The notes beneath the pieces were generated by a model that saw only the letters and a list, made by a program, of their open reading frames with translations, was not told the origin of the DNA and made no database searches. The position numbers and the translations under genes were made by a program. Of a DNA stretch of 64,000 nt, positions 8,818-22,255 are shown in pieces. The stretch comes from a virus. Its lineage: Duplodnaviria > Heunggongvirae > Uroviricota > Caudoviricetes. The DNA lies in IMG/VR virus record IMGVR_UViG_3300042400_000444. One strand, 5' to 3'. The stretch's first letter is position 1; every line of letters starts with the position of its first letter.

Positions 8818-10020
8818 GTGTCAACCGTTATTAACATTGTACCCGACAATTTATCAAACAGAGACTATTACTGTTCGATGAAGTTTCGTATGCTGAAAGT
8901 GGATATCGAATCGGGTACTACTTATAATTGTCATGCGGCAACTCCTCATAAAATTGATTTTAATTGGTTACGTGCTCATCCAGGACAATTATTTAATTCG
9001 GAAATTAATATAACTGAACGTCGTATGATGTTAGAAAATCAACGTAATGCTAGTTGTGAACAAAATTGTTGGCCTGCTGAGGATATAAGTGCAATCAGTC
9101 CTCGGCTTTTGCAAGAAGGCACTAAAAAAACTCATACTGAAATAATAGCATCTCCTGAAATTTTAGATTTAACTATAGGTTCTAATTGTAATTTATCATG
9201 TTCATATTGCTGTAAAGAATTTAGTAGTTCGTGGCGTAATGATATTTTACAAAATGGCGATTATTTATTAACTGATGATAATAAACGATACAGTGTGAAT
9301 TCGACAGACAGAATTCTAAACAAACTTAGTTATAATAAAATTCATAATAGTAAATCAATACAATACTTGTACAATGAAATAACTTTATGGAGTGCAGATC
9401 TTAAACAACTTGTAATTACCGGTGGTGAACCATTTCTAGATAATACTTTATTAGATATCATTGACTCAGCCAAGTCAATTCCGATAATAGAAATTTATAC
9501 AGGACTAGGAGTCAATCCTTCGAGGTTTGCTCGAATACTAAAACAATTATCATTATTTAAAAATATCATATTAATTATAAGTGCCGAGGGAATAATGCAA
9601 TTTTTGGAATTTAATCGGTATGGGATTGACTGGGAAGAATTTAAACAAAAAATAGTTCAACTTGAAAATTCTGGAATTGACTTTAAATTTCAATCTACTA
9701 TTACTAATTTAACATTATTTGGATTTGCTGACTTTTATAAATATTTTAATCAACACCGAATCGAATTAAATTTTGCTTATCAACCCAACATGATGGCACC
9801 GTATGTACTTGATCCGGCAAGTAAACAAATAATTTTAGATACACTCCAAAAAATATTGCCAGAATCGGAATTTAAAAAAATACAAATGTCGATTAATCAA
9901 ACTCCAACTAACTTGCAGAGAATTAATATAAAAGAATTTTTAACGGAATTTACAAGACGTAGACCGGATATCAGCACAGATATCTTTCCAAAGTCATTTA
10001 TAAATTGGATCAATGAATAA
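8818..10020 (+). CDS. radical SAM enzyme (paralogue A)
   Basis: CNLSCSYC is a CxxxCxxC motif. GGEPFL glycine-rich SAM motif. N-terminal C..K..CH motif shared with the ORF at 24302. GTG start immediately after the upstream stop. Confidence 0.8.
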   Translation: MSTVINIVPDNLSNRDYYCSMKFRMLKVDIESGTTYNCHAATPHKIDFNWLRAHPGQLFNSEINITERRMMLENQRNASCEQNCWPAEDISAISPRLLQEGTKKTHTEIIASPEILDLTIGSNCNLSCSYCCKEFSSSWRNDILQNGDYLLTDDNKRYSVNSTDRILNKLSYNKIHNSKSIQYLYNEITLWSADLKQLVITGGEPFLDNTLLDIIDSAKSIPIIEIYTGLGVNPSRFARILKQLSLFKNIILIISAEGIMQFLEFNRYGIDWEEFKQKIVQLENSGIDFKFQSTITNLTLFGFADFYKYFNQHRIELNFAYQPNMMAPYVLDPASKQIILDTLQKILPESEFKKIQMSINQTPTNLQRINIKEFLTEFTRRRPDISTDIFPKSFINWINE

Positions 10021-10725: not shown

Positions 10726-11614
10726 ACATGCACTTAGGGTATTAAATCAACTCAGAGAATACGATAGTTTTCTTGACAGTTTACACACAATTGTAGACAT
10801 GGGTTGCGGAACCGGCGAAGACATTACGTGGTGGGCAACATTAGAAACACGTGATGACCCACCAGTACCACACAATTATAATTGTTTTGCTGTTGATCGC
10901 GACCCTGCTAAACTAGATCAAGTGCCTGATCTTAAAAATATACACAAAACTAAACAAGATTTTAATACACGTTGCATACCCGTACAAGCTGATTTAATGT
11001 GGGCACATGATAGTTTACAGTATAGCACTAACCCAATCGAAACATTAAAAGTATGGAATGAGCAAATGAATGTTGATGCTATGCTAGTATTGAGCATACC
11101 GCAACATTCCGGAGTTGCAGACAATAGGTACTATAGTCGTACACATAGCGGATGTTTTCATAACTTTACTCCGACTAGTTTAATTTATATGCTTGCAGTA
11201 AATGGATTTGATTGTAAAGATGCATATATGCTTAAAGAATTTAATGATCCGTGGATTCATATTGCTGTATACAAATCAGATGTTGCACCGAAAGATGCAG
11301 ATACAACGTCGTGGCTTGATTTAATTGATAGTGGATTATTGAATCAGACTGTAATCAATTCAATTACTTCATATGGTTATTTGCGCCAAGAGGATATTTT
11401 ATATCCATGGTTAGATAAAGAGAACTATTTTATTGATTATGTAAGCCAACAGACAGTAATTCCTGCAGAAGCTGTACACAATGATGCTGGTGTAGTTAAT
11501 ACTAAAAAACAAGCCAAAAAATCTACAGTAAAGCAAGCGAAACCAACAAGGGTAGAAACTACAATAGCAAAACCGGTTGGTGTAATGCGTCCACCTAAGA
11601 AAAACTATGATTAA
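10718..11614 (+). CDS. class I SAM-dependent methyltransferase
   Basis: VDMGCGTGED motif I. Confidence 0.6.
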   Translation: MARHALRVLNQLREYDSFLDSLHTIVDMGCGTGEDITWWATLETRDDPPVPHNYNCFAVDRDPAKLDQVPDLKNIHKTKQDFNTRCIPVQADLMWAHDSLQYSTNPIETLKVWNEQMNVDAMLVLSIPQHSGVADNRYYSRTHSGCFHNFTPTSLIYMLAVNGFDCKDAYMLKEFNDPWIHIAVYKSDVAPKDADTTSWLDLIDSGLLNQTVINSITSYGYLRQEDILYPWLDKENYFIDYVSQQTVIPAEAVHNDAGVVNTKKQAKKSTVKQAKPTRVETTIAKPVGVMRPPKKNYD

Positions 11615-12371
11615 TAAAGTTGTACTTGTGACCGGCGGGTTTGACCCGCTTCATTCCGGGCATATAGAATATTTCAAAGCTGCTAAAGCACTTGGCAAGA
11701 TACTTGTTGTTGGTGTGAATAGTGATGCCTGGGTAGCTCGCAAGAAGGGCAGAGCATTTATGCCATCTACTGAACGTATTGCTATTATTGAAAACTTAAA
11801 GATGGTTGATCATTGCATATTGTTTAATGATAATGATAACACAGCCATTGAGGCAATTAATAACGTAAAACTAATGTACCCTAACAGTCAAATTATATTT
11901 GCCAACGGTGGCGACAGAACAGCTAATAATATTCCAGAAATGATAGTCAATGATATAGTATTTAAATTTGGCATCGGCGGCGGTAATAAGCTCAACAGTA
12001 GCAGTTGGATATTAGATGAGTGGAAAGCACCTAAAACTGACCGAGAATGGGGCTATTATCGTGTATTACATGACGTTCCGGGCCTAAAAGTGAAAGAATT
12101 AACCATTGATCCGGGCAAGCGCCTAAGTATGCAGAAACATTACAATAGATCTGAATTATGGTTTATTGCAGATGGTGAGGCAACGGTTAGTGAATATAGC
12201 ATTGTTTATCCAACTGCTCTACAAAATCCACATCTACCTAAACATTCGACCCATCGCATACCAGAAGAACAATGGCATCAACTTGCTAACCCATACGACA
12301 GACCCGTTCGCATAATTGAAATACAATATGGCGATATCTGTGTTGAGGATGACATAGAACGTAAAGCATAA
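11607..12371 (+). CDS. cytidylyltransferase-family nucleotidyltransferase fused to a cupin domain
   Basis: GGFDPLHSGH (HxGH nucleotidyltransferase motif, TagD/RfaE-II family). C-terminal cupin-like segment LSMQKHYNRSELWFIADGEA. Confidence 0.6.
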   Translation: MINKVVLVTGGFDPLHSGHIEYFKAAKALGKILVVGVNSDAWVARKKGRAFMPSTERIAIIENLKMVDHCILFNDNDNTAIEAINNVKLMYPNSQIIFANGGDRTANNIPEMIVNDIVFKFGIGGGNKLNSSSWILDEWKAPKTDREWGYYRVLHDVPGLKVKELTIDPGKRLSMQKHYNRSELWFIADGEATVSEYSIVYPTALQNPHLPKHSTHRIPEEQWHQLANPYDRPVRIIEIQYGDICVEDDIERKA

Positions 12372-12378: not shown

Positions 12379-13680
12379 ATGCGCAAATTTATTGACCTTA
12401 TTAAACTAACCGAAGCAATGGCACAACCAACAGTAGACGAATTTGCGTCTATGAAAGCAATCATTGCAGGCAAAATTAAACAATTACCTGATGATGATGA
12501 AACTGCTAAAGCACTTCGCGAAATCGAAGACTTGCTTGCACACGTTGGTGGCGGTGGCACAGGTGGTAAGATTGGTATGATCAATGGCGAACTTGCTAAG
12601 ATTAGCGATCCAACAGTACAAGCCGCACAAAAAGAACTTGCACGTTACATTTTAAGTTTAGATATGACCCCAGCTCAACGTGATGAACTATTTAAACTAT
12701 GGCGCGAAGATAAACTTGTTGACCGTGCTAAACTATTAAGCAAAGGTAAGAAAACATTTGCTGACATTGTTAACAGTTATCACAGCAACCCAGCTATTAA
12801 AGAGCTTACGAATGATTTAATGCGCATAGCTGCATTAGGACAAGGCAAGGGTGAGTTTGCATTATGTGTACTAAGCAAAAGCATCAGCAAACCACCTAAG
12901 GGAGATTTGTTAGTTGATGGCCGCAAGATTGAAGTTAAGACAACAGATGGTGGTGCTGGCCGCTTTACTGACCAAGAAGTACGTCCAGGCAAAGGTTTCG
13001 AACAAGCCGCACGTGAACTAACTGACTTTGTTGTAAACAATGAAGAAACTCCGTTTGCACTTCCTGGAAGTGGATTAAGTCTTGCTTATGCGGCTAAGAT
13101 TGCAAGTCAAATGGCAGACACAGATAAATTTGTTACATTATGTAAAAACGTAATTAATATTATTTTTGATAGTAGTGACACCTCAGCAGTAAACAGAATC
13201 AGCGACGCAATTAAATCAGGTAACGCAGGTGCAGCATTACAAGAATATGCACAACTAAGTTTTAACTATTACATGAGTAAGAAAGACGACGAAGGTGTAT
13301 TATACATTAACGTAACTAAAGACCCGATATCAATGGTTTACTTTGTTGATGCAAGCGAACTAGCAGCAAGTGGTCTACGTCTACATGCCGGTACAGTATA
13401 CATTACAAGTGTTGATGATATACGTCTACCTTACCCGCAGATGGAGATTGTTGATACTACGTTTGGTGCTAATGCCGCAGCCGCAACAGCTAAAAAAGCC
13501 GCAACCGCAGAAAAGAAAGCTGCCAAGGCAACAGCAGATGCAATACGTAAACAAGTAGATGGAACCACTCCTACCACAGGGCTGACTCCTCCTGGTGCAG
13601 TATCTACTCCTGCTACGGTCATTGACCGTGCTACTCGTCCAGGTTCACAAATATCCGAACATAGGCGAGAAAGACGTTGA
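12379..13680 (+). CDS. hypothetical protein with possible PD-(D/E)xK-like motif and A/K/T-rich basic tail
   Basis: 433 aa. GDLLVDGRKIEVK is a D...ExK pattern. The C-terminal AAAATAKKAATAEKKAAKATA tract is histone-H1-like. Confidence 0.5.
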   Translation: MRKFIDLIKLTEAMAQPTVDEFASMKAIIAGKIKQLPDDDETAKALREIEDLLAHVGGGGTGGKIGMINGELAKISDPTVQAAQKELARYILSLDMTPAQRDELFKLWREDKLVDRAKLLSKGKKTFADIVNSYHSNPAIKELTNDLMRIAALGQGKGEFALCVLSKSISKPPKGDLLVDGRKIEVKTTDGGAGRFTDQEVRPGKGFEQAARELTDFVVNNEETPFALPGSGLSLAYAAKIASQMADTDKFVTLCKNVINIIFDSSDTSAVNRISDAIKSGNAGAALQEYAQLSFNYYMSKKDDEGVLYINVTKDPISMVYFVDASELAASGLRLHAGTVYITSVDDIRLPYPQMEIVDTTFGANAAAATAKKAATAEKKAAKATADAIRKQVDGTTPTTGLTPPGAVSTPATVIDRATRPGSQISEHRRERR

Positions 13681-13737
13681 CATTCAGGTAATTCCGTGTT
13701 ACAATAGTACTTTAAATAACAACTTAGGGTATATATT

Positions 13738-14007
13738 ATGGCAAACAAAATAGCGTCAGTTGAAAAATACAACATTGATAACTGTGATGCTGTATTTGGT
13801 GGTAATCGATTCCAATTAATTTTAGCCGCAGGTGTTCGAGCACATGAGATTGCAAAAGCTCGTGTAACTGCATCACGTAACGCAGGAACAATTGCAGATC
13901 AACCTAAGTATGCAAATCTTCCAGCAGTGCAAGCATTGCTTGATGTAGAAGCAGGTACCTGTGGTGTAGAATACTTAACTAAAGTCGGCAAGCAAATAAG
14001 ACAATAA
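13738..14007 (+). CDS. rpoZ: RNA polymerase omega subunit (RpoZ)-like protein
   Basis: NRFQLILAAGVRAHEIA matches the RpoZ core NRFDLVLVAARRARQ. 89 aa, typical RpoZ size. RBS present. Confidence 0.5.
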   Translation: MANKIASVEKYNIDNCDAVFGGNRFQLILAAGVRAHEIAKARVTASRNAGTIADQPKYANLPAVQALLDVEAGTCGVEYLTKVGKQIRQ

Positions 14008-14014: not shown

Positions 14015-14089
14015 GGGCCTGTAGCTTAATGGTAAAGCGGAGAACTCATAATTCTAGGAGTGCTAGTTCAATTCTAGCCAGGCCCACCA
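14015..14089 (+). tRNA. tRNA-Met/Ile2 (anticodon CAT)
   Basis: 7-bp acceptor GGGCCTG/CAGGCCC, D-arm GCTT..AAGC, anticodon loop CTCATAA, T-loop TTCAATT, encoded CCA. Confidence 0.75.
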
Positions 14090-14098
14090 AACAACACT

Positions 14099-14173
14099 AC
14101 CCCGGTGGTCCAAGGAATGGGCACCGTTCTTCTAAAGCGGCTTATATTGGTTTGAATCCAATCCGGGGTACCA
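14099..14173 (+). tRNA. tRNA-Arg (anticodon TCT)
   Basis: Acceptor ACCCCGG/CCGGGGT, anticodon loop CTTCTAA, T-arm ATTGG-TTTGAAT-CCAAT, CCA. Confidence 0.7.
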
Positions 14174-14196
14174 ATATTTAAATATAAGGAAATATA

Positions 14197-14397
14197 ATGT
14201 CAGATTTAAATGAATATGATTATGAACAAGCAATGGCAGAATTTTTAGCTAACGGTGGCGAAGTAAAACAAATCGCCCGTGGCGTACAAAGTGAAACAGC
14301 AACAACAAACTTCTGGGGTGCACCAAAGAAAAAAGCCGCAGTAGAAGCAGTAAGTGAACTGGGCGATACTGCTGGAATTGACATAAACGATGTTTAG
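14197..14397 (+). CDS. hypothetical small protein
   Basis: 66-aa ORF with RBS AAGGAAATATAATG. Confidence 0.35.
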   Translation: MSDLNEYDYEQAMAEFLANGGEVKQIARGVQSETATTNFWGAPKKKAAVEAVSELGDTAGIDINDV

Positions 14398-15124
14398 CTT
14401 TTTTAAAAAGAAACTAATATTGGTCGGCAGTCGTCATAACTTGTCGGATATCAGCGTAATTGCGACAATGAATAATTATAAGATTGTTGGAATATTAGAT
14501 AAACATTATTGGGGCAATACTCCGGAGATTTGTGGTATTCCTGTGATAGGGTCTGAAGAGGAATTACTAGTACCTAATAATAAATGGGCAAAGTGTAATT
14601 TCTTTCCAGCAAATTGGTGGGATGGTAAACAAGCACGTGGACAAGAGTTTGATGCAGATGCACTTAGACGAGACCGATTGGAGTTACTCGACAAGTCTGG
14701 AGTCAATGTAGTGAATTTAATATCGAAAGAAGTGCATTGGTTTCATAATAAATCAAATTTAGTAATGGGTAAGGGAATATTAATTTTAAGTAATTCTAGC
14801 ATAGGCGAGAATATAACTATAGGCGACTACAGTGTAATTGATTGGGACGTTCGAATAAACAATACTGAGATTGGCCGTAATAGTATTGTTGGTACAGGAA
14901 GTTTATTGGCGCATGTTAAGGTTGGTGATAATGTTCGTATAGGTGCTAGGTGTACATTGATACCTAGTAGAAAAAAAGACTTGCTCACGATAGGAAATAA
15001 TGCTATTATATATCTTGTTAGTTTAGTATTAGATGACGTTGCAGAGAATGGAATTTATACAATGCACGGTAAAACTAGACAAAGATTCAAAAAATCACCG
15101 GATATAACACCGGTTCAAAAATAA
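14390..15124 (+). CDS. hexapeptide-repeat (left-handed beta-helix) acetyltransferase, NeuD/PglD-like
   Basis: C-terminal [IV]G..x repeats (IGENITIGDYSVIDWDVRINNTEIGRNSIVG...VKVGDNVRIGARCTL). N-terminal Rossmann-like region. Confidence 0.6.
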   Translation: MFSFFKKKLILVGSRHNLSDISVIATMNNYKIVGILDKHYWGNTPEICGIPVIGSEEELLVPNNKWAKCNFFPANWWDGKQARGQEFDADALRRDRLELLDKSGVNVVNLISKEVHWFHNKSNLVMGKGILILSNSSIGENITIGDYSVIDWDVRINNTEIGRNSIVGTGSLLAHVKVGDNVRIGARCTLIPSRKKDLLTIGNNAIIYLVSLVLDDVAENGIYTMHGKTRQRFKKSPDITPVQK

Positions 15125-15149
15125 AAGATAAATAATTAGATAAAGTGCT

Positions 15150-15178
15150 TGACAAAGATATAAATAGAATATATAATA
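15150..15178 (+). promoter_or_regulatory. sigma70-type promoter
   Basis: TTGACA-N17-TATAAT (cttgacaaagatataaatagaatatataat). Confidence 0.5.
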
Positions 15179-15378
15179 GCAGCATAGTAAGAAATTAATT
15201 AAAGGATACGAACGCAAAATGTTTAAAACGTGTAATCAATTTAAGAAATCACCGGTGCAGATACTTGCCACGATGTCTTATTGGTCAGCGATTGAGACAT
15301 TAGGCAGTAATGATCGTACACCGCATAATGAGGGTTTAAGTTAACGTTTATTTTTATATCATAAATGAATTTTTACTT

Positions 15379-15411
15379 AAACCCTAGGATTAATACTTCT
15401 AGGGTTTTTTG
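15379..15411 (+). terminator. rho-independent terminator
   Basis: AAACCCTAGG...CTAGGGTTTTTTG. Confidence 0.65.
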
Positions 15412-15428
15412 CATTTAAGGAGCCGAAG

Positions 15429-15557
15429 ATGGATAAAAAACAAATTGTTCAGAAGCCGACTCCAGAACAAAGGATTGTGCAGTTAGAACAAAAATTAGAA
15501 AGGGTAACAAAACTATTAACAGAAAACGTTAATCTTTTAAAGAAACTTTCTAAGTAG
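15429..15557 (+). CDS. small ORF (42 aa)
   Basis: RBS AAGGAGCCGAAGATG. Lys/Glu-rich, helical-looking. Confidence 0.3.
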   Translation: MDKKQIVQKPTPEQRIVQLEQKLERVTKLLTENVNLLKKLSK

Positions 15558-15766
15558 CAGTACGTGGCATGCGAAACGAGCTCGCGGCACACACGTTAAA
15601 TAGGCAAAGGGGCGGACAAGTGGATGGCATGTTCTTATGTGAACAGAAAATACTTGTTATAATAAAGTACACTAATCGGCAACTAGGTCCCATGCAACGT
15701 GGACTATGTCTTAGGCGAGTAATTAGTGTACTTTATTATACGCATTCATATGAGTGCGTTAACAGT

Positions 15767-15849
15767 TTGTAGATAGTCCTGTTGGGCCAGGAGCCTAGTC
15801 ATGCTAGGTCAAGATCGCAACTTGTTGGGTTCGATTCCCAGTCTACAAT
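15767..15849 (+). tRNA. tRNA-like with apparent CAT anticodon and a long variable arm; no encoded CCA
   Basis: Perfect 7-bp acceptor TTGTAGA/TCTACAA. T-arm TTGGG-TTCGATT-CCCAG. Anticodon arm GCCTA-GTCATGC-TAGGT. 15-nt variable arm CAAG-ATCGCAA-CTTG. Confidence 0.45.
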
Positions 15850-15851
15850 TT

Positions 15852-15896
15852 AACAGGGCTCCTATCTATTGCCTACGGGGATAGCTTAGGAGTTAT
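15852..15896 (+). terminator. imperfect long hairpin followed by a T-rich tract (possible terminator or processing site)
   Basis: GCTCCTATCTAT...ATAGCTTAGGAG stem followed by TTATTTTATAA. Confidence 0.35.
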
Positions 15897-15903
15897 TTTA
15901 TAA

Positions 15904-15981
15904 CTCTCGTTCGCCTAGTCTGGTATGGCACTTGCTTTGGGAGCAAGAAGAACGTAGGTTCAAATCCTACACGAGAGACCA
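15904..15981 (+). tRNA. tRNA-Pro (anticodon TGG)
   Basis: Acceptor CTCTCGT/ACGAGAG, anticodon arm CTTGC-TTTGGGA-GCAAG, T-arm GTAGG-TTCAAAT-CCTAC, CCA. Confidence 0.7.
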
Positions 15982-16044
15982 ATTGTTACAACCGCTGATT
16001 TAAACTTAATTGCAGGCGGATAAAATGCTAAAGGAGGATTAATC

Positions 16045-16107
16045 ATGAACGAACATGATGTTGAGACATGGGGCTTTGGCTTCCCATCTTACGCAAGACA
16101 AAAATAG
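16045..16107 (+). CDS. 20-aa peptide ORF (MNEHDVETWGFGFPSYARQK) with a near-perfect Shine-Dalgarno sequence
   Basis: AAAGGAGG-N7-ATG. Convergent with, and 16 bp from, the 3' end of the class B radical-SAM gene. Confidence 0.3.
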   Translation: MNEHDVETWGFGFPSYARQK

Positions 16108-16122
16108 TACAGAGTAGTTAAG

Positions 16123-18192
16123 TTAACATGAACTAATAGGGATATATTTTTTCTCTTTAGCAGTTTGTTCTAATAGTAGTTTATTTTTTGCTCGGGTCTC
16201 GGAAGAGATAGTTTCGATACAGTTATCGACCCAGCCAGATTGACTTTCGGTAACAATAGTAGCATGAGTACTTTCTTTAGTCCAATAACCAGTACCGGCC
16301 CACTCAAAGTTAAAACTTTTAGTACCAGTCATCCATGGTTCGCCGGGGTGTACTAGTTTGTGTGTAAAGTTACCTGAGAATTTACCAGCATCGTCAATTT
16401 TAAATTGAATAGTATATGCGTGGTCGTCACAGGCTAACATAGATCCGAATTCTGCATGGTCTATTTGTTTATCGGCTGTTTGATTAAATTCAAACCCGCC
16501 TTTGATTAACCATACCATTCTAAGGAAATGCCATATTTCGTTAACGATGCTATTAGCAAATGGTCCTAAGTTAGTGTTAATGATATTAAAATTAAATTCT
16601 TCGTTATCTATAGTGTCAACTGCATATGATGGATTATTAAATTCTATATTATAAAAATTTAATAAATTTGGTCTGTAATGACCATTTATAATATAATCGC
16701 CGTGCTGTTTGCACAGCGTCAACCAGATATTAAGTAATTTTAATCTTATAAGTTTAGATGCTTTATTGTTAGACCAATCCAACGACCACCACCAACCTTC
16801 GTAACGATTATCGGTGGGGCTTACGTCGTAGCGTTGGCGGTTAAATCCGAAATCAGATTGGTCGTTATCGCCAAAGGTCATACCTGGAGATATAACTTGA
16901 ATATTATTTCGATTGTTCCATAGCAACGATAAACTATGTGCAGATGCAATGGCATCTTCATTAGGAAATCCAACAATCCAGTTAACTAGTACCATAATGT
17001 TAGCAGATCTACAATCTTTAAGATTATTGTTAATTTCGTCAAGTGTGATTTTTTTATTCATTAAGTCTAGTACTTTTTGACTACCACTTTCGACCCCAAA
17101 ACTTAGATGTTCGCAACCACTTTGTTGCAACTCAATGAAATAGTCAAGGTCCATACGTCCGTCGCATCGAGCATAACCCATCCATCGGATGTGTAATTGT
17201 TTTTCGATTACTCCTGATGCAAATGCACGTAGTTCTTTAAGATTGCCATTTACGAGGCTGTCGATGAACCATAACGTTTTTACACCGTATGTTTTTACTT
17301 GAAATTCAACTTCGTCTAACAGCGTATGTGCTTGCCTATCGCGAAATTTCCAGAACCAAGTTTCTGTACAAAAACTACATTGGGCAACACACCCCCTGCT
17401 TAGTTCTGCACTGACACCATTGGACGTTTTGTAAATAGATAAATCGTAATCTGTGTAATCGGGCATTGGCAACGTATCTAGATTAAGTCTGGTATTACTA
17501 TACGTTGCTCCTAGTTTAACAGGCATTTCAATGTTGTTTTCGATATTATCTAATATATCTAGGATAGCTTGTTCGCCTTCGCCAGTTACCCAATGGTCAA
17601 CTCCGTCCATTGGTACAAAATGTGGGTCGTGGCATGAGGGCCCACCGACAATAATTTTTATATTAGGTAATCGTTTTTTTAATTCGGCAATTACAAATTT
17701 AGTTGGTTCGATGTTTGTATCGTATAAGCTAAAGCCTACAACAGTTGGGGAACTATCGATAATTTGTGATATGTATTTGATTAGGTATGGGTGTAGTGTA
17801 GGATGGAGTTTTTCATAATAGTCCAACCCTAACCACCACCAGTATTTTGCAGAATCCCATGCATCATCTAAATTAACAGATTTTAACTCGCGATACAATT
17901 CTCCGTTAAAATCGAATATGCTAGTAGCATATCCAGCGGCACGGGTTACAGCACTTAACCTAGCTAAATTATATGGAGGAAAATAAACACCCCAGCACCC
18001 TAATAGGCAGAGAGTAAATTTAATTTTTCGGGTAGCTGTAGTGGTTTGTAAATTTTGAAAATTCCTGCGTTGCCGAGGCACAGCATCTTGATCTTGTTTG
18101 GTTAATAAATTTTCAGCAATCCAGGCGTGTTTATCGGGGATGTCGGGTTGAGTAGTCATACAAATATTTATAGTAATAAAAGAGGTTGACAA
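16123..18192 (-). CDS. B12-binding-domain (class B) radical SAM enzyme
   Basis: 689 aa. SRGCVAQCSFC is a CxxxCxxC motif. The preceding Rossmann-like VVGFSLYDT...IIVGGP is typical of the cobalamin-binding domain of class B rSAMs. The only large minus-strand gene in the window. Confidence 0.85.
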   Translation of the reverse strand: MSTSFITINICMTTQPDIPDKHAWIAENLLTKQDQDAVPRQRRNFQNLQTTTATRKIKFTLCLLGCWGVYFPPYNLARLSAVTRAAGYATSIFDFNGELYRELKSVNLDDAWDSAKYWWWLGLDYYEKLHPTLHPYLIKYISQIIDSSPTVVGFSLYDTNIEPTKFVIAELKKRLPNIKIIVGGPSCHDPHFVPMDGVDHWVTGEGEQAILDILDNIENNIEMPVKLGATYSNTRLNLDTLPMPDYTDYDLSIYKTSNGVSAELSRGCVAQCSFCTETWFWKFRDRQAHTLLDEVEFQVKTYGVKTLWFIDSLVNGNLKELRAFASGVIEKQLHIRWMGYARCDGRMDLDYFIELQQSGCEHLSFGVESGSQKVLDLMNKKITLDEINNNLKDCRSANIMVLVNWIVGFPNEDAIASAHSLSLLWNNRNNIQVISPGMTFGDNDQSDFGFNRQRYDVSPTDNRYEGWWWSLDWSNNKASKLIRLKLLNIWLTLCKQHGDYIINGHYRPNLLNFYNIEFNNPSYAVDTIDNEEFNFNIINTNLGPFANSIVNEIWHFLRMVWLIKGGFEFNQTADKQIDHAEFGSMLACDDHAYTIQFKIDDAGKFSGNFTHKLVHPGEPWMTGTKSFNFEWAGTGYWTKESTHATIVTESQSGWVDNCIETISSETRAKNKLLLEQTAKEKKYIPISSC

Positions 18193-18213
18193 ATAAATTA
18201 AAGAGTGTATAAT
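18186..18213 (+). promoter_or_regulatory. sigma70-type promoter driving the start of the tRNA island
   Basis: TTGACA-N16-TATAAT. Confidence 0.55.
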
Positions 18214-18264
18214 AGCATTTGAAGTTAAGTAATACGCTCTTTAACAGTTTAGAAGTAGTACAAT

Positions 18265-18339
18265 ATCGCTATAGTTTATCGGTTAGAACAACAGGTTTTC
18301 ATCCTGTCGGGCGGAGTTCGACTCTCCGTAGCGATACCA
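18265..18339 (+). tRNA. tRNA-Glu (anticodon TTC)
   Basis: Acceptor ATCGCTA/TAGCGAT, anticodon arm ACAGG-TTTTCAT-CCTGT, T-arm CGGAG-TTCGACT-CTCCG, CCA. Confidence 0.7.
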
Positions 18340-19020
18340 TATTAAAGCACATTGTGAAGCACTATGTAAATAGTATCACGAGGGCCATGTAGTGAGAAGG
18401 CAGTAGCCAAGTCTGGGAAGGCAACTTGTTCGGGATGGAGTCTATAGGTAGGAAGTCATGATCCTACTGGACCGAGTCAGCAAGTCATACGTAGGTTCAA
18501 ATCCTACCTGCTAACATAATGTTTCACAGTGTGCTTTAATATGGTAGTATCAGTTATATGTGAGTCATACACGGGACTGGCGTAAGAAACACATTGGGGC
18601 TCGGAACCCCTGCACATATAACACAATGACACAAAGGTAGTTGCAATCTACCCGGCGTGGTCGCAGACGTATACGGTCTTTTCCGTTCAATTCGGAGTGT
18701 TATTGGATATACCATATAAAAACACATTCTTCAAAGAATACAGGGTTCAATTCCCGGCCGTTGATCACGGAACTGCCAAGGTGGTGAGTGTGTTTCTATA
18801 TGGTAGTAATGGCAGAGGCAAGGATTAATTACCCATGCTGAGCGACCTGGAAGCGGGTGGACAAACGTGACTGTGGGCCACTAAGGTAGTCAACATTACT
18901 CGCCATATAAAAGCACACTTAATGCGTAGGCCACGCAGAGTCATGGATGATAGCATTGCCCCGTAAGGAGCAGTGTCGGTGGGTTCAATTCCCGCATAGT
19001 GTGTTTCTATATGGTTATAT
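18336..19020 (+). repeat. non-coding block with three nested pairs of ~25-bp inverted repeats flanking short tRNA-fragment-like segments
   Basis: Arm consensus ACCATAT(A/T)AAA(G/A)CACA / TGTGTTTCTATATGGT. Plus-sense arms at 18336, 18708, 18903; reverse arms at 18520, 18781, 18993. No ORF of 60 aa or more on either strand. Confidence 0.5.
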
Positions 19021-19106
19021 GCTGTCGCGGTGCAGTAGGAGAGGCACGCTGGTCTGTAAAATCAGTCCCACTGGGTGAATAGGTTCGATTCCTATAGGCA
19101 GCACCA
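19021..19106 (+). tRNA. tRNA-Tyr (anticodon GTA), type II
   Basis: Acceptor GCTGTCG/AGGCAGC (6/7 pairs). Anticodon arm CTGGT-CTGTAAA-ATCAG. Long variable arm TCCCACTGGGTGA. T-arm ATAGG-TTCGATT-CCTAT. CCA. Confidence 0.65.
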
Positions 19107-19466
19107 AGAATTTGCAGAGCGCGGTGCTAGTCTAGCCTCGAGGCATAATCCAAGTTAGTTGCAACTAGCAACAGATTGTGAAAACTAGACAACAAGGTTC
19201 GATTCCTTACTGCATCTTATTTTATGTCGCAGTTCCAGTTACACTAATCTCTCAGTTAAAAGCTGTTAGTGTGTAAAGGATACGAGAAAGTCAACTTCTT
19301 CTGGGTAGACTGTGACGCCAAACACGAGGAGTGTTCACCTCTATAAAAACGAGCCAATATTTTTACACTAAAGGAAAAACAGTTATGAAGGTAACTAAAC
19401 TTTAGTGTCGTCTTTAATCCCATGTATGATTAAGGATAGGCACGTTAAACATCTTTATACATATAT

Positions 19467-19541
19467 GGGGGTATAATTCAATGGCTAGAATATCCGGCTT
19501 TTACCCGGACTATCAGAGTTCAAATCTCTGTGCCCTCACCA
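19467..19541 (+). tRNA. tRNA-Lys (anticodon TTT)
   Basis: Acceptor GGGGGTA/TGCCCTC with G-U pairs, anticodon arm TCCGG-CTTTTAC-CCGGA, T-arm CAGAG-TTCAAAT-CTCTG, CCA. Confidence 0.7.
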
Positions 19542-19655
19542 TAAGAAAGTATATTACTGACGCCTCAGAGAAGAGTTCCGGTAGCTCAGTATCGATTAAT
19601 AACTAAGTCAGCAGTTGGGTTCGCTGAATGTAGTGTACTTCCTTATGGTATCAAT

Positions 19656-19732
19656 GGTGACCGTAGCTCAGTTGGTAGAGTCCAGGATTGTGATTCCTGT
19701 TGTCGTGGGTTCGAGCCCCATCGGTCACCCCA
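19656..19732 (+). tRNA. tRNA-His (anticodon GTG) with extra 5' G(-1)
   Basis: G+GTGACCG/CGGTCAC, D-arm GCTC-AGTTGGTA-GAGT, anticodon arm CAGGA-TTGTGAT-TCCTG, CCA. Confidence 0.75.
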
Positions 19733-19790
19733 AGTTTTAATATGGCTTCCGTCCGTAGAATACTGCTTGCAGTCGGCTCGGAAGTTCTTT

Positions 19791-19868
19791 GGCACTTTAG
19801 CATAGCTGGCTTAATGCGCTACCCTGTCACGGTAGAGATCACGGATTCGAATTCCGTAAGTGTCGCCA
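19791..19868 (+). tRNA. tRNA-Asp (anticodon GTC)
   Basis: Acceptor GGCACTT/AAGTGTC, anticodon arm CTACC-CTGTCAC-GGTAG, T-arm ACGGA-TTCGAAT-TCCGT, CCA. Confidence 0.75.
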
Positions 19869-19874
19869 ACTTAT

Positions 19875-19948
19875 TCCGGTGTAGTATAATGGCAGTGCGA
19901 CGGTCTCCAAAACCGTTAGTGGGGGTTCGATTCCCTCCACCGGAGCCA
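19875..19948 (+). tRNA. tRNA-Trp (anticodon CCA)
   Basis: Acceptor TCCGGTG/CACCGGA, anticodon arm ACGGT-CTCCAAA-ACCGT, T-loop TTCGATT, CCA. Confidence 0.7.
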
Positions 19949-19962
19949 GTTTCAAATAGTGG

Positions 19963-19991
19963 TTGACAGCAAATATCAAAAATGCTACACT
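19963..19991 (+). promoter_or_regulatory. sigma70-type promoter inside the tRNA island
   Basis: TTGACA-N17-TACACT. Confidence 0.5.
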
Positions 19992-20021
19992 ATATAGATA
20001 GTAACAAATAAGTAAATGGAA

Positions 20022-20074
20022 GAAAGCCGTAACAATATGTATTCGAGGTTAGGAGAGTACGGCAAACCGTCCAA
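20022..20074 (+). ncRNA. conserved 52-nt structured element, copy 1 (second copy at 23301)
   Basis: GAAAGCcGTAACAaTATGTATTCGAGGTTAGGAGAGTACgGCAAACCG. The GCCGTA/TACGGC stem covaries with GCTGTA/TACAGC in copy 2. Could alternatively encode a 14-15-aa peptide MYSRLGEY(G/S)KP. Confidence 0.4.
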
Positions 20075-20168
20075 GGGTAGCTGATGCCTGTGGTGCAACT
20101 CCACCGTTGAAATCAGTCATGATTCTGCACATGATAACAGGCCTGTATTTGGCCGCAGAACTTTTATC

Positions 20169-20242
20169 GCGGTGGTGGGCTAATTGGCAAGCCGTAGGGC
20201 TCATAACCCTGAGACGAGGTTCGAATCCTCCGACCGCAACCA
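20169..20242 (+). tRNA. tRNA with CAT anticodon (Met/Ile2 class), slightly non-canonical
   Basis: D-arm GGCT-AATTGGCA-AGCC, anticodon arm TAGGG-CTCATAA-CCCTG, T-loop TTCGAAT. Acceptor GCGGTGG/CGACCGC has one G-G mismatch. 3' ACCA. Confidence 0.5.
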
Positions 20243-20260
20243 AATACACAGGGGAATAAC

Positions 20261-20428
20261 ATGGCAATTAAAAAAGCAAACTCAATGACTACACGTACAG
20301 GCAAACCTAGACTAGGTCCACTGAATTTAACCCAACTAAATACATTGTTGGATAAAACTAGCAAAGGTAAAGATAAAGCAAAACTCCGTAATAGAATTGC
20401 TGTATTGGAATCACGCTTAGTTAAATAA
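20261..20428 (+). CDS. small basic protein (55 aa)
   Basis: RBS CAGGGGAATAACATG. K/R-rich. Confidence 0.35.
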   Translation: MAIKKANSMTTRTGKPRLGPLNLTQLNTLLDKTSKGKDKAKLRNRIAVLESRLVK

Positions 20429-20434
20429 GTTTTT

Positions 20435-20519
20435 GCCGGGTTGCGCCGAATGGGATGGCACCTGACTTGTAATCAGGCTTCGTAAGATAGAGAGTGTTCG
20501 ATTCACTCACCCGGCACCA
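20435..20519 (+). tRNA. type-II-architecture tRNA (long variable arm, 3-bp D-stem) with apparent TGT (Thr) anticodon
   Basis: Acceptor GCCGGGT/ACCCGGC perfect. Anticodon arm CCTGA-CTTGTAA-TCAGG. Variable arm CTTCGTAAGATAGA. T-arm GAGTG-TTCGATT-CACTC. CCA. 85 nt. Confidence 0.55.
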
Positions 20520-20524
20520 GTAAT

Positions 20525-20599
20525 GCCCAGTTAGCAGAGTGGTAATGCGCCTCACTTGTAATGAGGATATCGGCGGTTCGATTCCGTCACTGGGCACCA
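20525..20599 (+). tRNA. tRNA-Thr (anticodon TGT)
   Basis: Acceptor GCCCAGT/ACTGGGC, anticodon arm CCTCA-CTTGTAA-TGAGG, T-arm GGCGG-TTCGATT-CCGTC, CCA. Confidence 0.7.
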
Positions 20600-20607
20600 A
20601 GTATTAA

Positions 20608-20692
20608 GCCTCTTTGGTGGAATTGGTATACACGTTGGTCTTAGAAGCCAATGCTGAAAGGCTTGAGAGTTCGAGTCTCTCAGGGGGCACCA
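20608..20692 (+). tRNA. tRNA-Leu (anticodon TAG), type II
   Basis: Acceptor GCCTCTT/AGGGGGC (G-U pairs), anticodon loop CTTAGAA, long variable arm, T-arm GAGAG-TTCGAGT-CTCTC, CCA. Confidence 0.65.
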
Positions 20693-20749
20693 AAAAATTT
20701 TATAGAGTAAAGTCTGATCGGTAAATACCCGTACAACGGAGATAAATTT

Positions 20750-21493
20750 ATGTTTGAATGGTATTGGGCGTTTGTATTCGGGTATATAGTACATACTATA
20801 ACAGTAATTGTAGTTTCAATTTTCCTGCATCGAATGTATGCACATAAGCACTTGTTATCCACGCCGGCATTTGATACAATGAGTCGAATTTGGTTATGGA
20901 TGGTAGGCGCATATTGGCCTAAAATTGCAAGAATATTTGCAGCAGTGCATAGAAAGCACCATGCTATGCCGGACACACTAGATGATCCACATACACCATG
21001 GATATATTCATGCCGTGAATTATTATTTCCTACGACAGACAGGGAAAAAGGCAAAGCATATTACATGCCGCCTGAAGAAAGAGATAGTATTGCAGGTGAT
21101 GTACCGGCATTCGATGATAAGTTGGATATATTCTTAATGAAGTATCTACCATACAGTAAGATACCATTGGTATTAGTATTCTTAACGTTATTTTCATGGC
21201 AAGGTGCTATAATTGGGTTTGTGTGGTTAACTATATCTCGGTACAGCGGAAGATTACATAATTGCGTATCGCACAAATATGGATATAGATGGCAACCAGC
21301 AAAAACAGAAGGTGACCGTTCAGTAAACTGCTTACCGATTGGGTTAGTATTCGGCGGTGAGGAATTAGGAGCCAATCATCATGATTATCCAGATTTGGTT
21401 AACTTTGCAATTAAGTGGTACGAATTTGATACAGGGTGGTATGTTGTTAAAGTATTAGAATTTTTTAAATTAGTAAAAATTGTTAAATCTTAA
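20750..21493 (+). CDS. membrane fatty-acid desaturase (stearoyl-CoA desaturase-like), paralogue 1
   Basis: His boxes HRMYAH, HRKHH(AMPD), NHHDYP. Hydrophobic N-terminal segments. Confidence 0.65.
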   Translation: MFEWYWAFVFGYIVHTITVIVVSIFLHRMYAHKHLLSTPAFDTMSRIWLWMVGAYWPKIARIFAAVHRKHHAMPDTLDDPHTPWIYSCRELLFPTTDREKGKAYYMPPEERDSIAGDVPAFDDKLDIFLMKYLPYSKIPLVLVFLTLFSWQGAIIGFVWLTISRYSGRLHNCVSHKYGYRWQPAKTEGDRSVNCLPIGLVFGGEELGANHHDYPDLVNFAIKWYEFDTGWYVVKVLEFFKLVKIVKS

Positions 21494-21638
21494 AGAAAAA
21501 ATTGCGAGTATGGTGGAATTGGTATACACAGTAAATGGTTGGAAATACCAATGGGTCAGCAAATAAAGGTAAACCCAAAAGTGAAGAGCATAAGAAAAAG
21601 ATTGCTGAATCAATAAAACAAAAATATGCTACAAGAAA

Positions 21639-21723
21639 TGCTCCGATGGCGTAATTGGTAGCCGCAATGGACTTAAAATTCATTATCGAAAGGTGTCCCG
21701 GTTCGACTCCGGGTCGGAGCACC
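21639..21723 (+). tRNA. tRNA-Leu (anticodon TAA), type II
   Basis: Acceptor GCTCCGA/TCGGAGC, anticodon arm ATGGA-CTTAAAA-TTCAT, long variable arm, T-arm CCCGG-TTCGACT-CCGGG, CCA. Confidence 0.7.
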
Positions 21724-21823
21724 AGAGTTTAGTTGCACAGTAAAAACACGAGTGATGGTGTGCGGGTTCAAATCCCGGTGGGGAGGTAAAAGCTCCCGGC
21801 TGCACTCAGACTAACAGTTTTAA

Positions 21824-21897
21824 AGCGGGATTAGTTTAATGGCAAAACTGGAGTTTTCCAAACTTCTGTCATCAGTTCGATTCTGATATCCCGCTCC
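21824..21897 (+). tRNA. tRNA-Gly (anticodon TCC)
   Basis: Acceptor GCGGGAT/ATCCCGC, D-arm GTTT-AATGGCA-AAAC, anticodon loop TTTCCAA, T-arm ATCAG-TTCGATT-CTGAT, CCA. Confidence 0.75.
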
Positions 21898-22249: not shown

Positions 22250-22255
22250 ATATTA

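What the first reader, a model, noticed from the sequence alone, without database searches (positions are those of the whole stretch)
13738..14007. Phage-encoded RNA polymerase omega (RpoZ)-like protein
The 89-aa ORF contains NRFQLILAAGVRAHEIAKA, matching the RpoZ signature NRF-LV-AA-RAR, with RpoZ-like length and an N-terminal MA..A.VEK. It sits between nucleotide-sugar genes and the first tRNAs. A virus-encoded omega subunit could bias host RNAP assembly, stability or ppGpp response.
Basis: partly seen in the sequence, partly recalled or inferred. Interest (0 to 1): 0.6.

Follow-up and report, generated by a model that had tools for sequence, protein, structure and literature searches.

The report
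Phage-encoded RNA polymerase omega mimic
An uncultured giant phage that depends on its host's RNA polymerase carries its own divergent copy of the polymerase's smallest subunit (omega), next to a second small polymerase-binding protein, which suggests the virus swaps in its own parts to re-tune the host enzyme.

Summary
The 89-aa ORF at 13738-14007 (+) is real and is a genuine, divergent homologue of bacterial RNAP omega. Alone it falls below Pfam's cutoff (PF01192, 21 vs 26 bits). Family profiles match only omega chains in the PDB (best E=5e-18). HHalign gives 94% against E. coli omega, and the AlphaFold model retrieves only omega chains. dN/dS is 0.01-0.25.

The gene belongs to a large family seen only in uncultured viral sequence: 46 IMG/VR loci and 290 clusters at 50% identity. 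I found it in no cultured phage, PHROG or cellular genome.

It differs from cellular omega systematically. It is basic (pI 8-10 vs 4.3-5), has a 7-9-residue N-terminal extension displacing the 'MAR' ppGpp-site-1 element, and lacks the acidic tail.

It heads a tRNA operon behind a conserved near-consensus sigma-70 promoter. A tRNA starts 7 bp after its stop.

A conserved 66-aa 'mini-SutA' lies 190 bp downstream. It keeps SutA's RNAP-beta-protrusion-binding motif but lacks the activating acidic domain.

No phage RNAP was found, and the nearest cultured relative (PA5oct) uses host RNAP.

Most likely mechanism (inferred): an omega replacement on host beta-prime that rewires regulation.

Databases auto-label a few such ORFs; I found no study of them. 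Verdict: new variant of a known kind.

The parts
13677..13705 (+). Near-consensus sigma-70 promoter (TTGACA-N17-TACAAT with extended -10 TG) driving the omega-like gene and the genes that follow it
   Evidence: it is one of 9 exact TTGACA-N16-18-TAYAAT sites in the window, all on the + strand, against 0.31 expected by chance; a matching promoter sits about 50-61 bp upstream of the ATG (about 19 bp in one locus) in nearly all group-A loci; the hexamers and the TG are conserved while the spacers diverge.
13738..14007 (+). 89-aa phage omega-like protein (divergent RpoZ/Rpb6 homologue)
   Evidence: profile homology to omega only, an omega fold, and purifying selection.
14015..14089 (+). tRNA-Met (CAT), starting 7 bp after the omega stop codon; first tRNA of the 27-gene array
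   Evidence: in 18 of 31 DNA-distinct loci a tRNA begins 1-11 bp after the omega stop.
14099..14173 (+). tRNA-Arg (TCT), lying between the omega-like gene and the mini-SutA gene
14197..14397 (+). 66-aa 'mini-SutA': homologue of the RNAP-binding domain of the Pseudomonas transcription factor SutA, without SutA's acidic N-terminal activation domain
   Evidence: PF20661 scores 29.8 bits against a 29.3-bit cutoff, E=3.9e-7; all 92 homologues carry a precomputed PF20661 annotation; the family profile's only significant PDB hit is P. aeruginosa SutA (E=2.2e-4); it is conserved just downstream of omega in syntenic loci. Interface residues are compared with PMC9300723.

Best explanation
The ORF encodes a virus-specific version of the omega subunit of bacterial RNA polymerase. 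The phage has no polymerase of its own in the sequence examined and uses host sigma-70-type promoters. The protein is made from a strong, conserved sigma-70 promoter as the first gene of the phage's tRNA operon. It keeps the helical core through which omega clamps onto the beta-prime subunit (GNRF, AAxxRA and ALL-V/EI blocks). The most likely mechanism is therefore that it occupies the omega site on host beta-prime, either on newly assembled enzyme or by exchange with host omega, and so yields a phage-modified host RNAP. The parts of cellular omega that carry regulation are replaced. The 'MAR' N-terminus, which coordinates the ppGpp phosphates at site 1, is displaced by a 7-9-residue extension, with Glu at the position equivalent to Ala2 in the window's subgroup. 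The acidic disordered C-tail is missing, and the net charge is reversed. I infer that the substituted enzyme responds differently to ppGpp and/or sigma competition, which would keep phage tRNA and sigma-70-promoter transcription running in starved or stringently responding hosts. In this phage lineage it probably works together with the adjacent mini-SutA, which should dock on the beta protrusion. Shown here: homology, fold, selection, promoter, operon context, the systematic differences from cellular omega, and the partnership with mini-SutA. Inferred: binding to host beta-prime, displacement of host omega, and the effect on ppGpp or sigma regulation.
For: Homology and fold. Real gene: dN/dS 0.01-0.25. 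Reliance on host RNAP: no RNAP or sigma Pfam/PHROG hit among the ~50 window ORFs scanned (all 46 of >=150 aa plus a few short ones); 9 consensus sigma-70 promoters against 0.31 expected; the closest cultured relative by terminase (54% identity) is PA5oct, which lacks a phage RNAP, is rifampicin-sensitive and uses TTGAC/TATAATA promoters (PMC7318152). Conserved promoter upstream of omega. N-terminal register: bacterial residues 2-3 align to phage positions 9-10; S-V-E is invariant in all 21 group-A sequences. Omega residues 2-5 coordinate the ppGpp phosphates, and omega-delta2-5 RNAP loses site-1 binding (PMC7676912). Charge and tail contrast: pI 8-10 against 4.3-5.0. Precedent that a plasmid-expressed omega variant can outcompete chromosomal omega on core RNAP (PMC7700224). 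Second RNAP-binding module next door: with M13, F16, L17, G20, G21, V23 and I26 identical to SutA interface residues M71, F74, L75, G78, G79, V81 and I84, which were validated by mutagenesis (PMC9300723).
Against: No binding data and no complex model: the tools offered no multimer prediction. The host is unknown, so compatibility with its beta-prime cannot be assessed. The window protein alone is below Pfam's gathering score and has no NCBIfam hit. Group-B relatives keep an invariant Ser-Arg near the equivalent N-terminal position, so loss of ppGpp binding is not a safe generalisation. E. coli mutants lacking omega have only mild phenotypes (PMC7676912), so the benefit from altering site 1 alone may be small. 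Only 64 kb of a genome of at least 193 kb was examined, so a phage RNAP or sigma factor elsewhere cannot be excluded.
Confidence: 0.55

Rival explanations
1. Subunit poison. The phage omega binds host core RNAP more tightly than host omega and impairs initiation at ordinary host promoters, so it acts as a host shut-off factor. The phage's near-consensus, extended -10 promoters escape the defect.
For: E. coli dominant-lethal omega mutants are more structured, bind alpha2-beta-beta-prime more tightly and give an initiation-defective enzyme, described as 'subunit poisoning' (PMC7700224). The phage protein is predicted to be fully helical, with no disordered tail. Phage promoters in the window are near-perfect consensus.
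Against: The phage itself appears to depend on the same enzyme. Nothing in the sequence indicates a loss-of-function interface. The conserved pairing with a SutA-type module, which in SutA helps promoter opening, fits tuning better than poisoning.
Confidence: 0.15
2. Private docking adaptor. The phage omega sits on beta-prime mainly to display a phage-specific, basic surface or C-terminal helix (G.G.EYL.KV) that recruits a phage transcription factor or sigma-like protein to the host enzyme.
For: A virus-derived element already uses omega as an activator docking site: GafA of the Rhodobacter gene transfer agent binds omega directly (PMC9638019). The most phage-specific conserved block is the C-terminal EYL.K helix (Y79 and K82 invariant). 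The charge is reversed relative to host omega.
Against: No partner has been identified. No sigma or activator was recognised among the window ORFs scanned. The C-terminal helix may simply pack on beta-prime.
Confidence: 0.15
3. Plain chaperone or supplement. The protein simply boosts or stabilises beta-prime folding and RNAP assembly during infection (classic omega function) with no regulatory change. It would be a host-like gene kept to maintain transcription capacity.
For: The conserved core (CR-type blocks) is the part of omega responsible for binding and folding beta-prime (PMC9973325; PMC7700224).
Against: A simple supplement would be expected to resemble host omega. Instead the viral family is systematically different in N-terminus, charge and tail. 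It matches cellular omegas only over the core, at 43-54% identity for group B. It has been a distinct, diversified viral family for a long time (290 clusters at 50% identity).
Confidence: 0.1
4. Subunit of a phage-encoded multisubunit RNA polymerase whose beta/beta-prime-like genes lie outside the 64-kb window.
For: Only part of the genome was seen. Eukaryotic large DNA viruses encode Rpb6 homologues as part of their own polymerases (my own knowledge, not tested here).
Against: No RNAP domains were found among the window ORFs scanned. Consensus host-type promoters are strongly enriched. The nearest cultured relatives belong to the jumbo-phage group that lacks an RNAP and uses host polymerase (PMC7318152; PMC7824862). 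Known phage multisubunit RNAPs are described in terms of split beta/beta-prime-like subunits, and the survey that describes them never mentions omega.
Confidence: 0.03
5. Not an omega at all: a small helical protein that resembles omega by chance, or a spurious ORF.
For: The single-sequence Pfam score is below the curated cutoff; there is no NCBIfam or PHROG hit; Foldseek E-values are weak (0.05 and above), as expected for an 89-residue helical protein.
Against: The family profile hits only omega in the PDB, down to E=5e-18. 104 of 116 members hit PF01192. HHalign gives 93.9%. Every one of the 50 listed structural hits is omega. Purifying selection is strong.
Confidence: 0.02

Closest known systems
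Bacterial RNA polymerase omega subunit (RpoZ; Pfam PF01192 RNA_pol_Rpb6), especially gammaproteobacterial omega
   Same: Size of about 75-90 aa. Helical fold with the same order of helices. Conserved GNRF-L-L, AA..RA and (V)-AL..(I/V)..G blocks. Profile-level homology at E=5e-18 to solved omegas, with E. coli at 6e-16 and P. aeruginosa at 2e-13.
   Different: Encoded by a virus inside a tRNA operon rather than in the gmk-rpoZ-spoT locus. A 7-9-residue N-terminal extension replaces the MAR ppGpp-site-1 element. Basic rather than acidic (pI 8-10 against 4.3-5.0). No acidic disordered C-terminal tail. A phage-specific G.G.EYL.KV C-terminal helix. An insertion of about 8 residues between helices 2 and 3 in the window's subgroup. 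Below Pfam's gathering score, and no NCBIfam equivalog hit.
Pseudomonas aeruginosa SutA (PF20661 SutA-RBD), closest relative of the neighbouring 66-aa protein
   Same: Helix, GG motif and strand matching the RNAP-beta-protrusion-binding domain. M, F, L, G, G, V and I at the positions shown by mutagenesis to mediate binding. Mostly disordered apart from one helix.
   Different: Lacks the ~56-residue D/E-rich N-terminal domain that SutA needs for activation (PMC9300723). Lacks the equivalents of K60 and R64. Carries its own invariant motif RGVQSETATTNFWGAPKKK. Phage-encoded and 53-67 aa long in nearly all homologues.
Known phage strategies for taking over host RNAP (phage sigma factors, T4 gp33/gp55, AsiA, Alc, ADP-ribosylation, GNAT modification, inhibitors such as Xp10 P7)
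   Same: The same apparent goal, redirecting the host enzyme to phage genes. The same phage group: T4-like jumbo phages that lack their own RNAP (PMC7824862).
   Different: Those factors are sigma-like proteins, anti-sigmas, inhibitors or enzymes. None is a homologue of a core subunit of the host enzyme. The comparative survey of 224 jumbo phages never mentions omega, Rpb6 or RpoZ.
GafA-omega interaction in the Rhodobacter gene transfer agent
   Same: A virus-derived system whose transcription depends on the omega subunit (PMC9638019).
   Different: There the element encodes an activator that binds the host's own omega. Here the virus encodes the omega.
UniProt/BFVD entries A0A6J5T227, A0A6J5T9F2 and A0A6J7WH19 ('uncultured Caudovirales phage'; auto-annotated 'RNA polymerase, subunit omega/K/RPB6') and JGI calls 'DNA-directed RNA polymerase subunit K/omega'
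   Same: Members of the same viral omega-like superfamily: Foldseek probability 1.0, TM up to 0.73, 24-33% identity. The JGI names are attached to close homologues.
   Different: These are automated labels only. I found no paper that analyses them.

Membership tests
RNAP omega / Rpb6 (Pfam PF01192) | Protein scores at or above Pfam's gathering threshold (26 bits) | tested here: not met
   The window protein scores 21 bits, E=3.5e-4. However, 23 of 24 close relatives and 104 of 116 superfamily members match at E<=0.01 and E<=0.001 respectively, with the best at 2.5e-16.
RNAP omega / Rpb6 | Profile-level sequence homology to experimentally solved omega subunits | tested here: met
   The A1 profile hits 21 distinct PDB sequences, all omega (best 6.6e-6). 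The A3 profile hits 33, all omega (best 5.2e-18). HHalign against E. coli omega gives 93.9%, E=1.5e-7.
RNAP omega / Rpb6 | Omega helical fold (alpha1-alpha3/4 bundle) | tested here: met
   The AF2 model has pLDDT 81.5 with helices at 13-19, 24-48, 62-71 and 77-88. All 50 listed Foldseek PDB hits are omega (49 chains of bacterial RNAP structures plus one RPOZ model); probabilities reach 1.0 at the top of the list and TM-scores are 0.4-0.7.
RNAP omega / Rpb6 | Conserved core motifs (GNRF; AAKRAR-type; ALEEI-type; PMC7700224) | tested here: met
   G22-N23-R24-F25 are present. A30-A31-G-V-R34-A35-H corresponds to AAKRAR. A66-L67-L68-D-V corresponds to ALEEI. R34, E37 and A66 are at least 90% conserved across 116 members. 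Some relatives vary the NRF motif (NQF, SRY, NKY).
Proteobacterial omega (ppGpp site 1) | N-terminal M-A-R motif, with residues 2-5 at the free N-terminus | tested here: not met
   Bacterial M1-A2-R3-V4-T5 aligns to phage V8-E9-K10-Y11-N12, preceded by 7 extra residues. All cellular hits start with MAR(V/I)TV. None of the top 150 family representatives starts with MAR(V/I)T.
NCBIfam rpoZ equivalog (TIGR00690) | Any hit to the NCBIfam omega model | tested here: not met
   No NCBIfam family matched at E<=10.
RNAP omega (functional definition) | Physically binds beta-prime and is part of the core enzyme | not testable with these tools
   No complex prediction or experiment was available. Inferred only from conservation of the core.
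Cellular rpoZ locus | Chromosomal context gmk-rpoZ-spoT (gammaproteobacteria) | tested here: not met
   The window gene lies between an unknown 433-aa ORF and tRNA-Met in a phage genome. A bacterial example shows the gmk-rpoZ-spoT arrangement.
SutA (PF20661 SutA-RBD), for the neighbour at 14197-14397 | Pfam gathering threshold and homology to solved SutA | tested here: met
   29.8 bits against a 29.3-bit cutoff. All 92 homologues carry a precomputed PF20661 annotation. The A5 profile hits P. aeruginosa SutA at E=2.2e-4 as the only significant PDB match.
SutA | Beta-protrusion interface residues (L67, M71, F74, L75, G78, G79, V81, I84, K60, R64) | tested here: met
   Seven of ten are identical (M13, F16, L17, G20, G21, V23, I26). 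L67 is replaced by Y9. K60 and R64 are not conserved.
SutA | Acidic N-terminal domain required for transcription activation | tested here: not met
   The phage protein begins about where the SutA RBD begins, and the whole family is 53-67 aa in nearly all members.
Phage multisubunit RNAP (phiKZ/AR9 type) | Beta/beta-prime-like genes in the same genome | tested here: not met
   None were found among the ~50 window ORFs scanned (all 46 of >=150 aa plus a few short ones) with Pfam and/or PHROGs. Only 64 kb of a genome of at least 193 kb was examined.

The most novel reading that the evidence does not exclude
This lineage of jumbo phages re-equips the host RNA polymerase with two virus-made parts. 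One is a replacement omega subunit that removes or alters ppGpp site 1. The other is a truncated SutA that occupies the beta protrusion. Together they would make the enzyme indifferent to the host's starvation and stringent signalling, so that phage tRNA operons and sigma-70-type promoters keep firing in slow-growing aquatic hosts. That would be the first case of a virus substituting a core subunit of its host's RNA polymerase.
Probability: 0.25. Interest if true: 0.85.

Novelty: new variant of a known kind. Interest (0 to 1): 0.62.

Why it matters
Phages are known to redirect host RNA polymerase with sigma factors, anti-sigmas, inhibitors and covalent modification. A virus-encoded homologue of a core subunit, in a phage that appears to lack its own polymerase, is not part of that catalogue.

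The family is large, with at least 290 clusters at 50% identity, and it is under purifying selection. Its location is also consistent: 22 of 30 informative loci have a tRNA gene within 60 bp of the omega-like gene.

The features that differ from cellular omega are the ones linked to regulation: the ppGpp site-1 N-terminus, the acidic tail and the net charge. In this lineage the gene is also paired with a truncated SutA, a factor that in Pseudomonas sustains transcription during growth arrest.

This gives a directly testable system for two open questions: what omega actually does in vivo, and how phages keep transcribing in starved hosts. It could also provide natural omega variants as tools for dissecting ppGpp site 1.

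Tried and rejected
- NCBIfam and PHROGs scans of the ORF found nothing. PHROGs also has no family matching E. coli omega or four other family members.
- megablast of 6 kb around the gene found nothing in INPHARED.
- tblastn with five different family members (the window protein, group-B L050, P0088, P0112, P0034) found either nothing or only contaminant/bacterial records. The same was true for E. coli omega. The 'Acinetobacter phage MD-2021a' rpoZ is a bacterial gmk-rpoZ-spoT contig.
- The genome-contig scan with the narrow family pattern found no relative. The 116-sequence alignment was too diverse to scan with. The group-B alignment retrieved only canonical bacterial rpoZ genes. That scan is pattern-limited, so the taxa returned are biased.
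- The search for homologous proteins with E. coli omega returned only sequences at least 98% identical and was useless for building a diverse bacterial alignment. I used rpoZ genes from the genome scan instead.
- phmmer of mini-SutA alone against the PDB gave only noise. A 9-sequence profile was marginal (E=0.09). Only the 41-sequence profile was significant.
- The AF2 model of mini-SutA was too low in confidence (pLDDT 61.8) for a fold search.
- Rfam found no riboswitch or leader near the gene, only tRNAs.
- The 'moraphage' paper and the boreal jumbophage paper turned out not to concern this lineage or omega.
- Rejected: a chance ORF (dN/dS), a mis-binned bacterial rpoZ (context and sequence features) and a subunit of a phage RNAP (no supporting evidence).
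- Literature caveat: the search tool does not map 'omega' to the Greek letter, and it covers open-access papers only. 'No paper found' is therefore weak evidence.

Full report
**1. The observation**

The ORF is at 13738-14007 on the + strand. Upstream lie a cytidylyltransferase/mannose-6-phosphate-isomerase-like gene (11607-12371) and a 433-aa ORF with no family hit. tRNA-Met begins 7 bp after the stop codon and opens an array of 27 tRNA genes.

The ORF is a real gene. Pairwise dN/dS against 14 homologues is 0.01-0.25 wherever dS is unsaturated.

One detail was misread. The 'MA..A.VEK' N-terminus is not in register with E. coli 'MARVTVQDAVEK'. Alignments place bacterial M1-A2-R3 opposite phage V8-E9-K10.

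**2. Is it omega?**

Taken alone, the evidence is borderline:
- PF01192 gives E=3.5e-4 at 21 bits, below the 26-bit cutoff.
- NCBIfam and PHROGs give nothing.
- The only weak PDB match is Xanthomonas omega.

At family level it is decisive:
- The big protein database holds 24 close clusters, all metagenomic, and 23 of the 24 aligned sequences (the window protein plus 23 homologues) hit PF01192.
- A profile of these matches 21 distinct PDB sequences, every one an RNAP omega.
- An exhaustive profile search of 1.84 billion representatives found 290 clusters at E<=0.001.
- A 116-member alignment of these matches 33 distinct PDB sequences, all omega: best 5.2e-18, E. coli 6.3e-16, P. aeruginosa 1.6e-13, with Gram-positive and mycobacterial omegas further down. 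104 of the 116 members hit PF01192.
- HHalign of the close family against the single E. coli sequence gives 93.9% probability.
- The AlphaFold model (pLDDT 81.5; helices 13-19, 24-48, 62-71, 77-88) retrieves only omega among its 50 listed Foldseek PDB hits: 49 are omega chains of bacterial RNAP structures and one is a model of RPOZ bound to a polymerase.

This is at least as strong as the evidence used to identify the chlamydial omega (PMC9973325).

**3. Whose gene is it?**

The window is a T4-like jumbo-phage genome. It encodes:
- a large terminase, gp32-like SSB, UvsX-, UvsY- and UvsW-like proteins, primase, a DnaB-like helicase, a DNA polymerase fragment, an endolysin and virion proteins;
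- many auxiliary genes.

The terminase is closest (54%) to Pseudomonas phage PA5oct, then to Atu_ph07 and Vibrio phage 2.275.O.

No RNAP or sigma domain was found among the ~50 window ORFs scanned, which include all 46 ORFs of at least 150 aa. Nine exact TTGACA-N16-18-TAYAAT sites occur, all on the + strand, against 0.31 expected by chance.

PA5oct lacks a phage RNAP, is rifampicin-sensitive and uses TTGAC/TATAATA promoters (PMC7318152). Its jumbo-phage group is characterised by using host polymerase (PMC7824862). The omega-like protein is therefore not obviously part of a viral polymerase.

**4. Distribution**

IMG/VR holds 46 viral loci with a relative, on contigs up to 329 kb. They fall into two groups:
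- Group A (the window's group): VE[KQR]YNIDNC...GNRFQLILAA.
- Group B, more bacterial-like: SRGPxIDTEKC...GGNRFDLVLIA..RAREIA.

I found none in cultured phages or in cellular genomes:
- Five family queries and E. coli omega against INPHARED gave nothing or only contaminant and mislabelled bacterial contigs.
- No PHROG family matches.
- In 185,579 species-representative genomes, the narrow pattern found no relative. The group-B pattern found only canonical gammaproteobacterial rpoZ, matching the core alone at 43-54%.

BFVD shows three UniProt entries from 'uncultured Caudovirales phage' auto-annotated as omega/K/RPB6, and JGI names some close homologues 'subunit K/omega'. Automated pipelines have therefore labelled such ORFs. 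I found no paper that discusses them. That search has limits: it covers open-access text only and does not match the Greek letter for omega.

**5. How it differs from cellular omega**

| Feature | Cellular omega | Phage omega |
|---|---|---|
| N-terminus | starts MAR(V/I)TV | 7-9 extra residues; V-E-[K/Q/R/I/V] (group A) or R-G-P (group B) at the MAR position |
| pI | 4.3-5.0 | 8-10 |
| C-terminus | acidic tail of 25-35 residues | ends just after a phage-specific G.G.EYL.KV helix |
| Loop between helices 2 and 3 | short | about 8 residues longer in group A |

Omega residues 2-5 coordinate the ppGpp phosphates at site 1, and omega-delta2-5 RNAP loses that binding (PMC7676912). The MAR motif is regarded as the ppGpp-binding signature (PMC9638019).

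In group A, S-V-E is invariant. This puts a Glu where Ala2 would be and buries the N-terminus. Site 1 is thus probably altered. This is inference, and group B keeps an invariant Ser-Arg nearby.

**6. Operon anatomy**

A near-consensus sigma-70 promoter with an extended -10 lies at 13677-13705, 32 bp before the ATG. A matching promoter sits about 50-61 bp upstream of the ATG (about 19 bp in one locus) in nearly all group-A loci. Hexamers and TG are conserved while spacers diverge.

Across 31 DNA-distinct loci:
- 18 have a tRNA starting 1-11 bp after the omega stop.
- 22 of 30 informative loci have a tRNA within 60 bp on one side or the other.
- Group-B genes are wedged between tRNAs with no promoter of their own.
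- Several gene calls even run upstream into translated tRNA sequence.

The gene is therefore expressed as part of the phage's stable-RNA operon, the class of transcription that ppGpp and omega are known to influence in proteobacteria.

**7. The neighbour**

A 66-aa ORF lies 190 bp downstream (14197-14397), after tRNA-Met and tRNA-Arg.
- It passes Pfam's SutA-RBD threshold (29.8 against 29.3 bits).
- All 92 homologues carry that annotation and nearly all are 53-67 aa long.
- A 41-sequence profile hits P. aeruginosa SutA as its only significant PDB match (E=2.2e-4).
- M13, F16, L17, G20, G21, V23 and I26 are identical to SutA residues M71, F74, L75, G78, G79, V81 and I84. Mutating those residues impairs binding to the RNAP beta protrusion (PMC9300723).
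- The acidic N-terminal domain that SutA needs for activation is absent.
- An invariant phage-specific motif, RGVQSETATTNFWGAPKKK, follows the RBD.
- The gene is conserved just downstream of omega in most group-A loci that extend far enough, down to about 52% omega identity. It is not found with group B.

According to that paper, SutA occurs in Alteromonadales and Pseudomonadales. This hints at the host, as does the PA5oct affinity.

**8. Mechanism**

The best-supported reading is an omega replacement. The protein binds host beta-prime through the conserved core and changes regulation through its altered N-terminus, charge and missing tail. In this lineage it acts together with mini-SutA on the beta protrusion.

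There is precedent that an ectopically expressed omega variant can outcompete the chromosomal one on core RNAP. It comes from E. coli dominant-lethal omega mutants, which are more structured and bind more tightly (PMC7700224). That same precedent supports the main rival, in which the protein poisons host transcription.

Other rivals are:
- a docking adaptor for a phage factor (compare GafA-omega, PMC9638019);
- a plain beta-prime chaperone;
- a subunit of a phage polymerase encoded outside the window.

None of the binding steps could be tested here, because no multimer prediction was available.

**9. Verdict**

The gene is a genuine member of the omega/Rpb6 superfamily, but it fails the proteobacterial-omega features tied to ppGpp and does not share the cellular locus. 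I class it as a new (viral) variant of a known kind, recorded by automated annotation but apparently unstudied. Interest is moderately high because of the unusual strategy, the breadth of the family, the pairing with mini-SutA and the ease of testing.

Noticed in passing
window 14197-14397 (+): A 66-aa 'mini-SutA'. It is a homologue of the RNAP-beta-protrusion-binding domain of Pseudomonas SutA that lacks the acidic activation domain, and it carries an invariant RGVQSETATTNFWGAPKKK motif of unknown role. It has 92 metagenomic homologues and none in cultured phages.
   Followed up: yes
window 13677, 15149, 18186, 23570, 26625, 32168, 41628, 41948, 42504 (all +): Nine exact TTGACA-N16-18-TAYAAT sigma-70 consensus promoters, all on the + strand, against 0.31 expected by chance. 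Several lie within or beside the tRNA array.
   Followed up: partly
window 14015-28974; also 18400-18511 and 25791-25867: An array of 27 tRNA genes (ARAGORN) interspersed with small and medium ORFs. Rfam adds two weak tRNA-like matches that ARAGORN did not call; these may be degenerate or intron-containing tRNAs.
   Followed up: partly
window 28190-28684 (+); L038-L050: A 164-aa dual-specificity/tyrosine-phosphatase-like protein at the end of the tRNA array. It is the one window protein kept at 54-60% identity in many of the distant group-B loci, within a few kb of the omega-like gene.
   Followed up: no
window 47722-48312 (+): A 196-aa methyltransferase that hits the rRNA adenine dimethylase family (PF00398, E=1.8e-10). 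This may be a phage-encoded modifier of ribosomal RNA.
   Followed up: no
window 20750-21493 and 39644-40378 (+): Two fatty-acid-desaturase-like ORFs. The first sits inside the tRNA array and is below Pfam's cutoff; the second is above it.
   Followed up: no
window 29046-31481, 33451-34035, 43810-44598 (+): An 811-aa subtilase, an outer-membrane beta-barrel protein and an SPFH/Band-7 protein, all unusual cargo for a phage. The subtilase and the beta-barrel protein recur in distant loci L044 and L048.
   Followed up: no
window 16123-18192 (-): A B12-binding radical-SAM enzyme, about 689 aa long. It is the only large gene on the minus strand in this part of the window. A second radical-SAM ORF lies at 8818-10020 (+).
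   Followed up: no
window 12379-13680 (+): A 433-aa ORF directly upstream of the omega promoter with no Pfam or PHROG hit and an Ala/Lys-rich C-terminal region. It is conserved in the same position in close syntenic loci (L001, L002, L132, L133).
   Followed up: no
window 3196-3843 (+): An HNH/NUMOD3 homing-endonuclease-like ORF lying between the large terminase gene and the virion structural protein gene.
   Followed up: no
L032-type gene calls; L044 9884-10195; P0038, P0039, P0049: Gene callers often extend group-B omega ORFs upstream into the preceding tRNA gene. This gives spurious N-terminal peptides such as 'GSSPV.GTK'. It is an annotation artefact that inflates the reported protein lengths.
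   Followed up: partly
INPHARED records CAKLQH020000003.1, MG065691.1, MG065686.1, OR845831.1, OR851528.1: Records labelled as phages that carry bacterial rpoZ. 'Acinetobacter phage MD-2021a' is a chromosomal gmk-rpoZ-spoT contig. Campylobacter phages A11a and A18a contain a sequence 100% identical to E. coli rpoZ, which is probably contamination or a chimera.
   Followed up: partly
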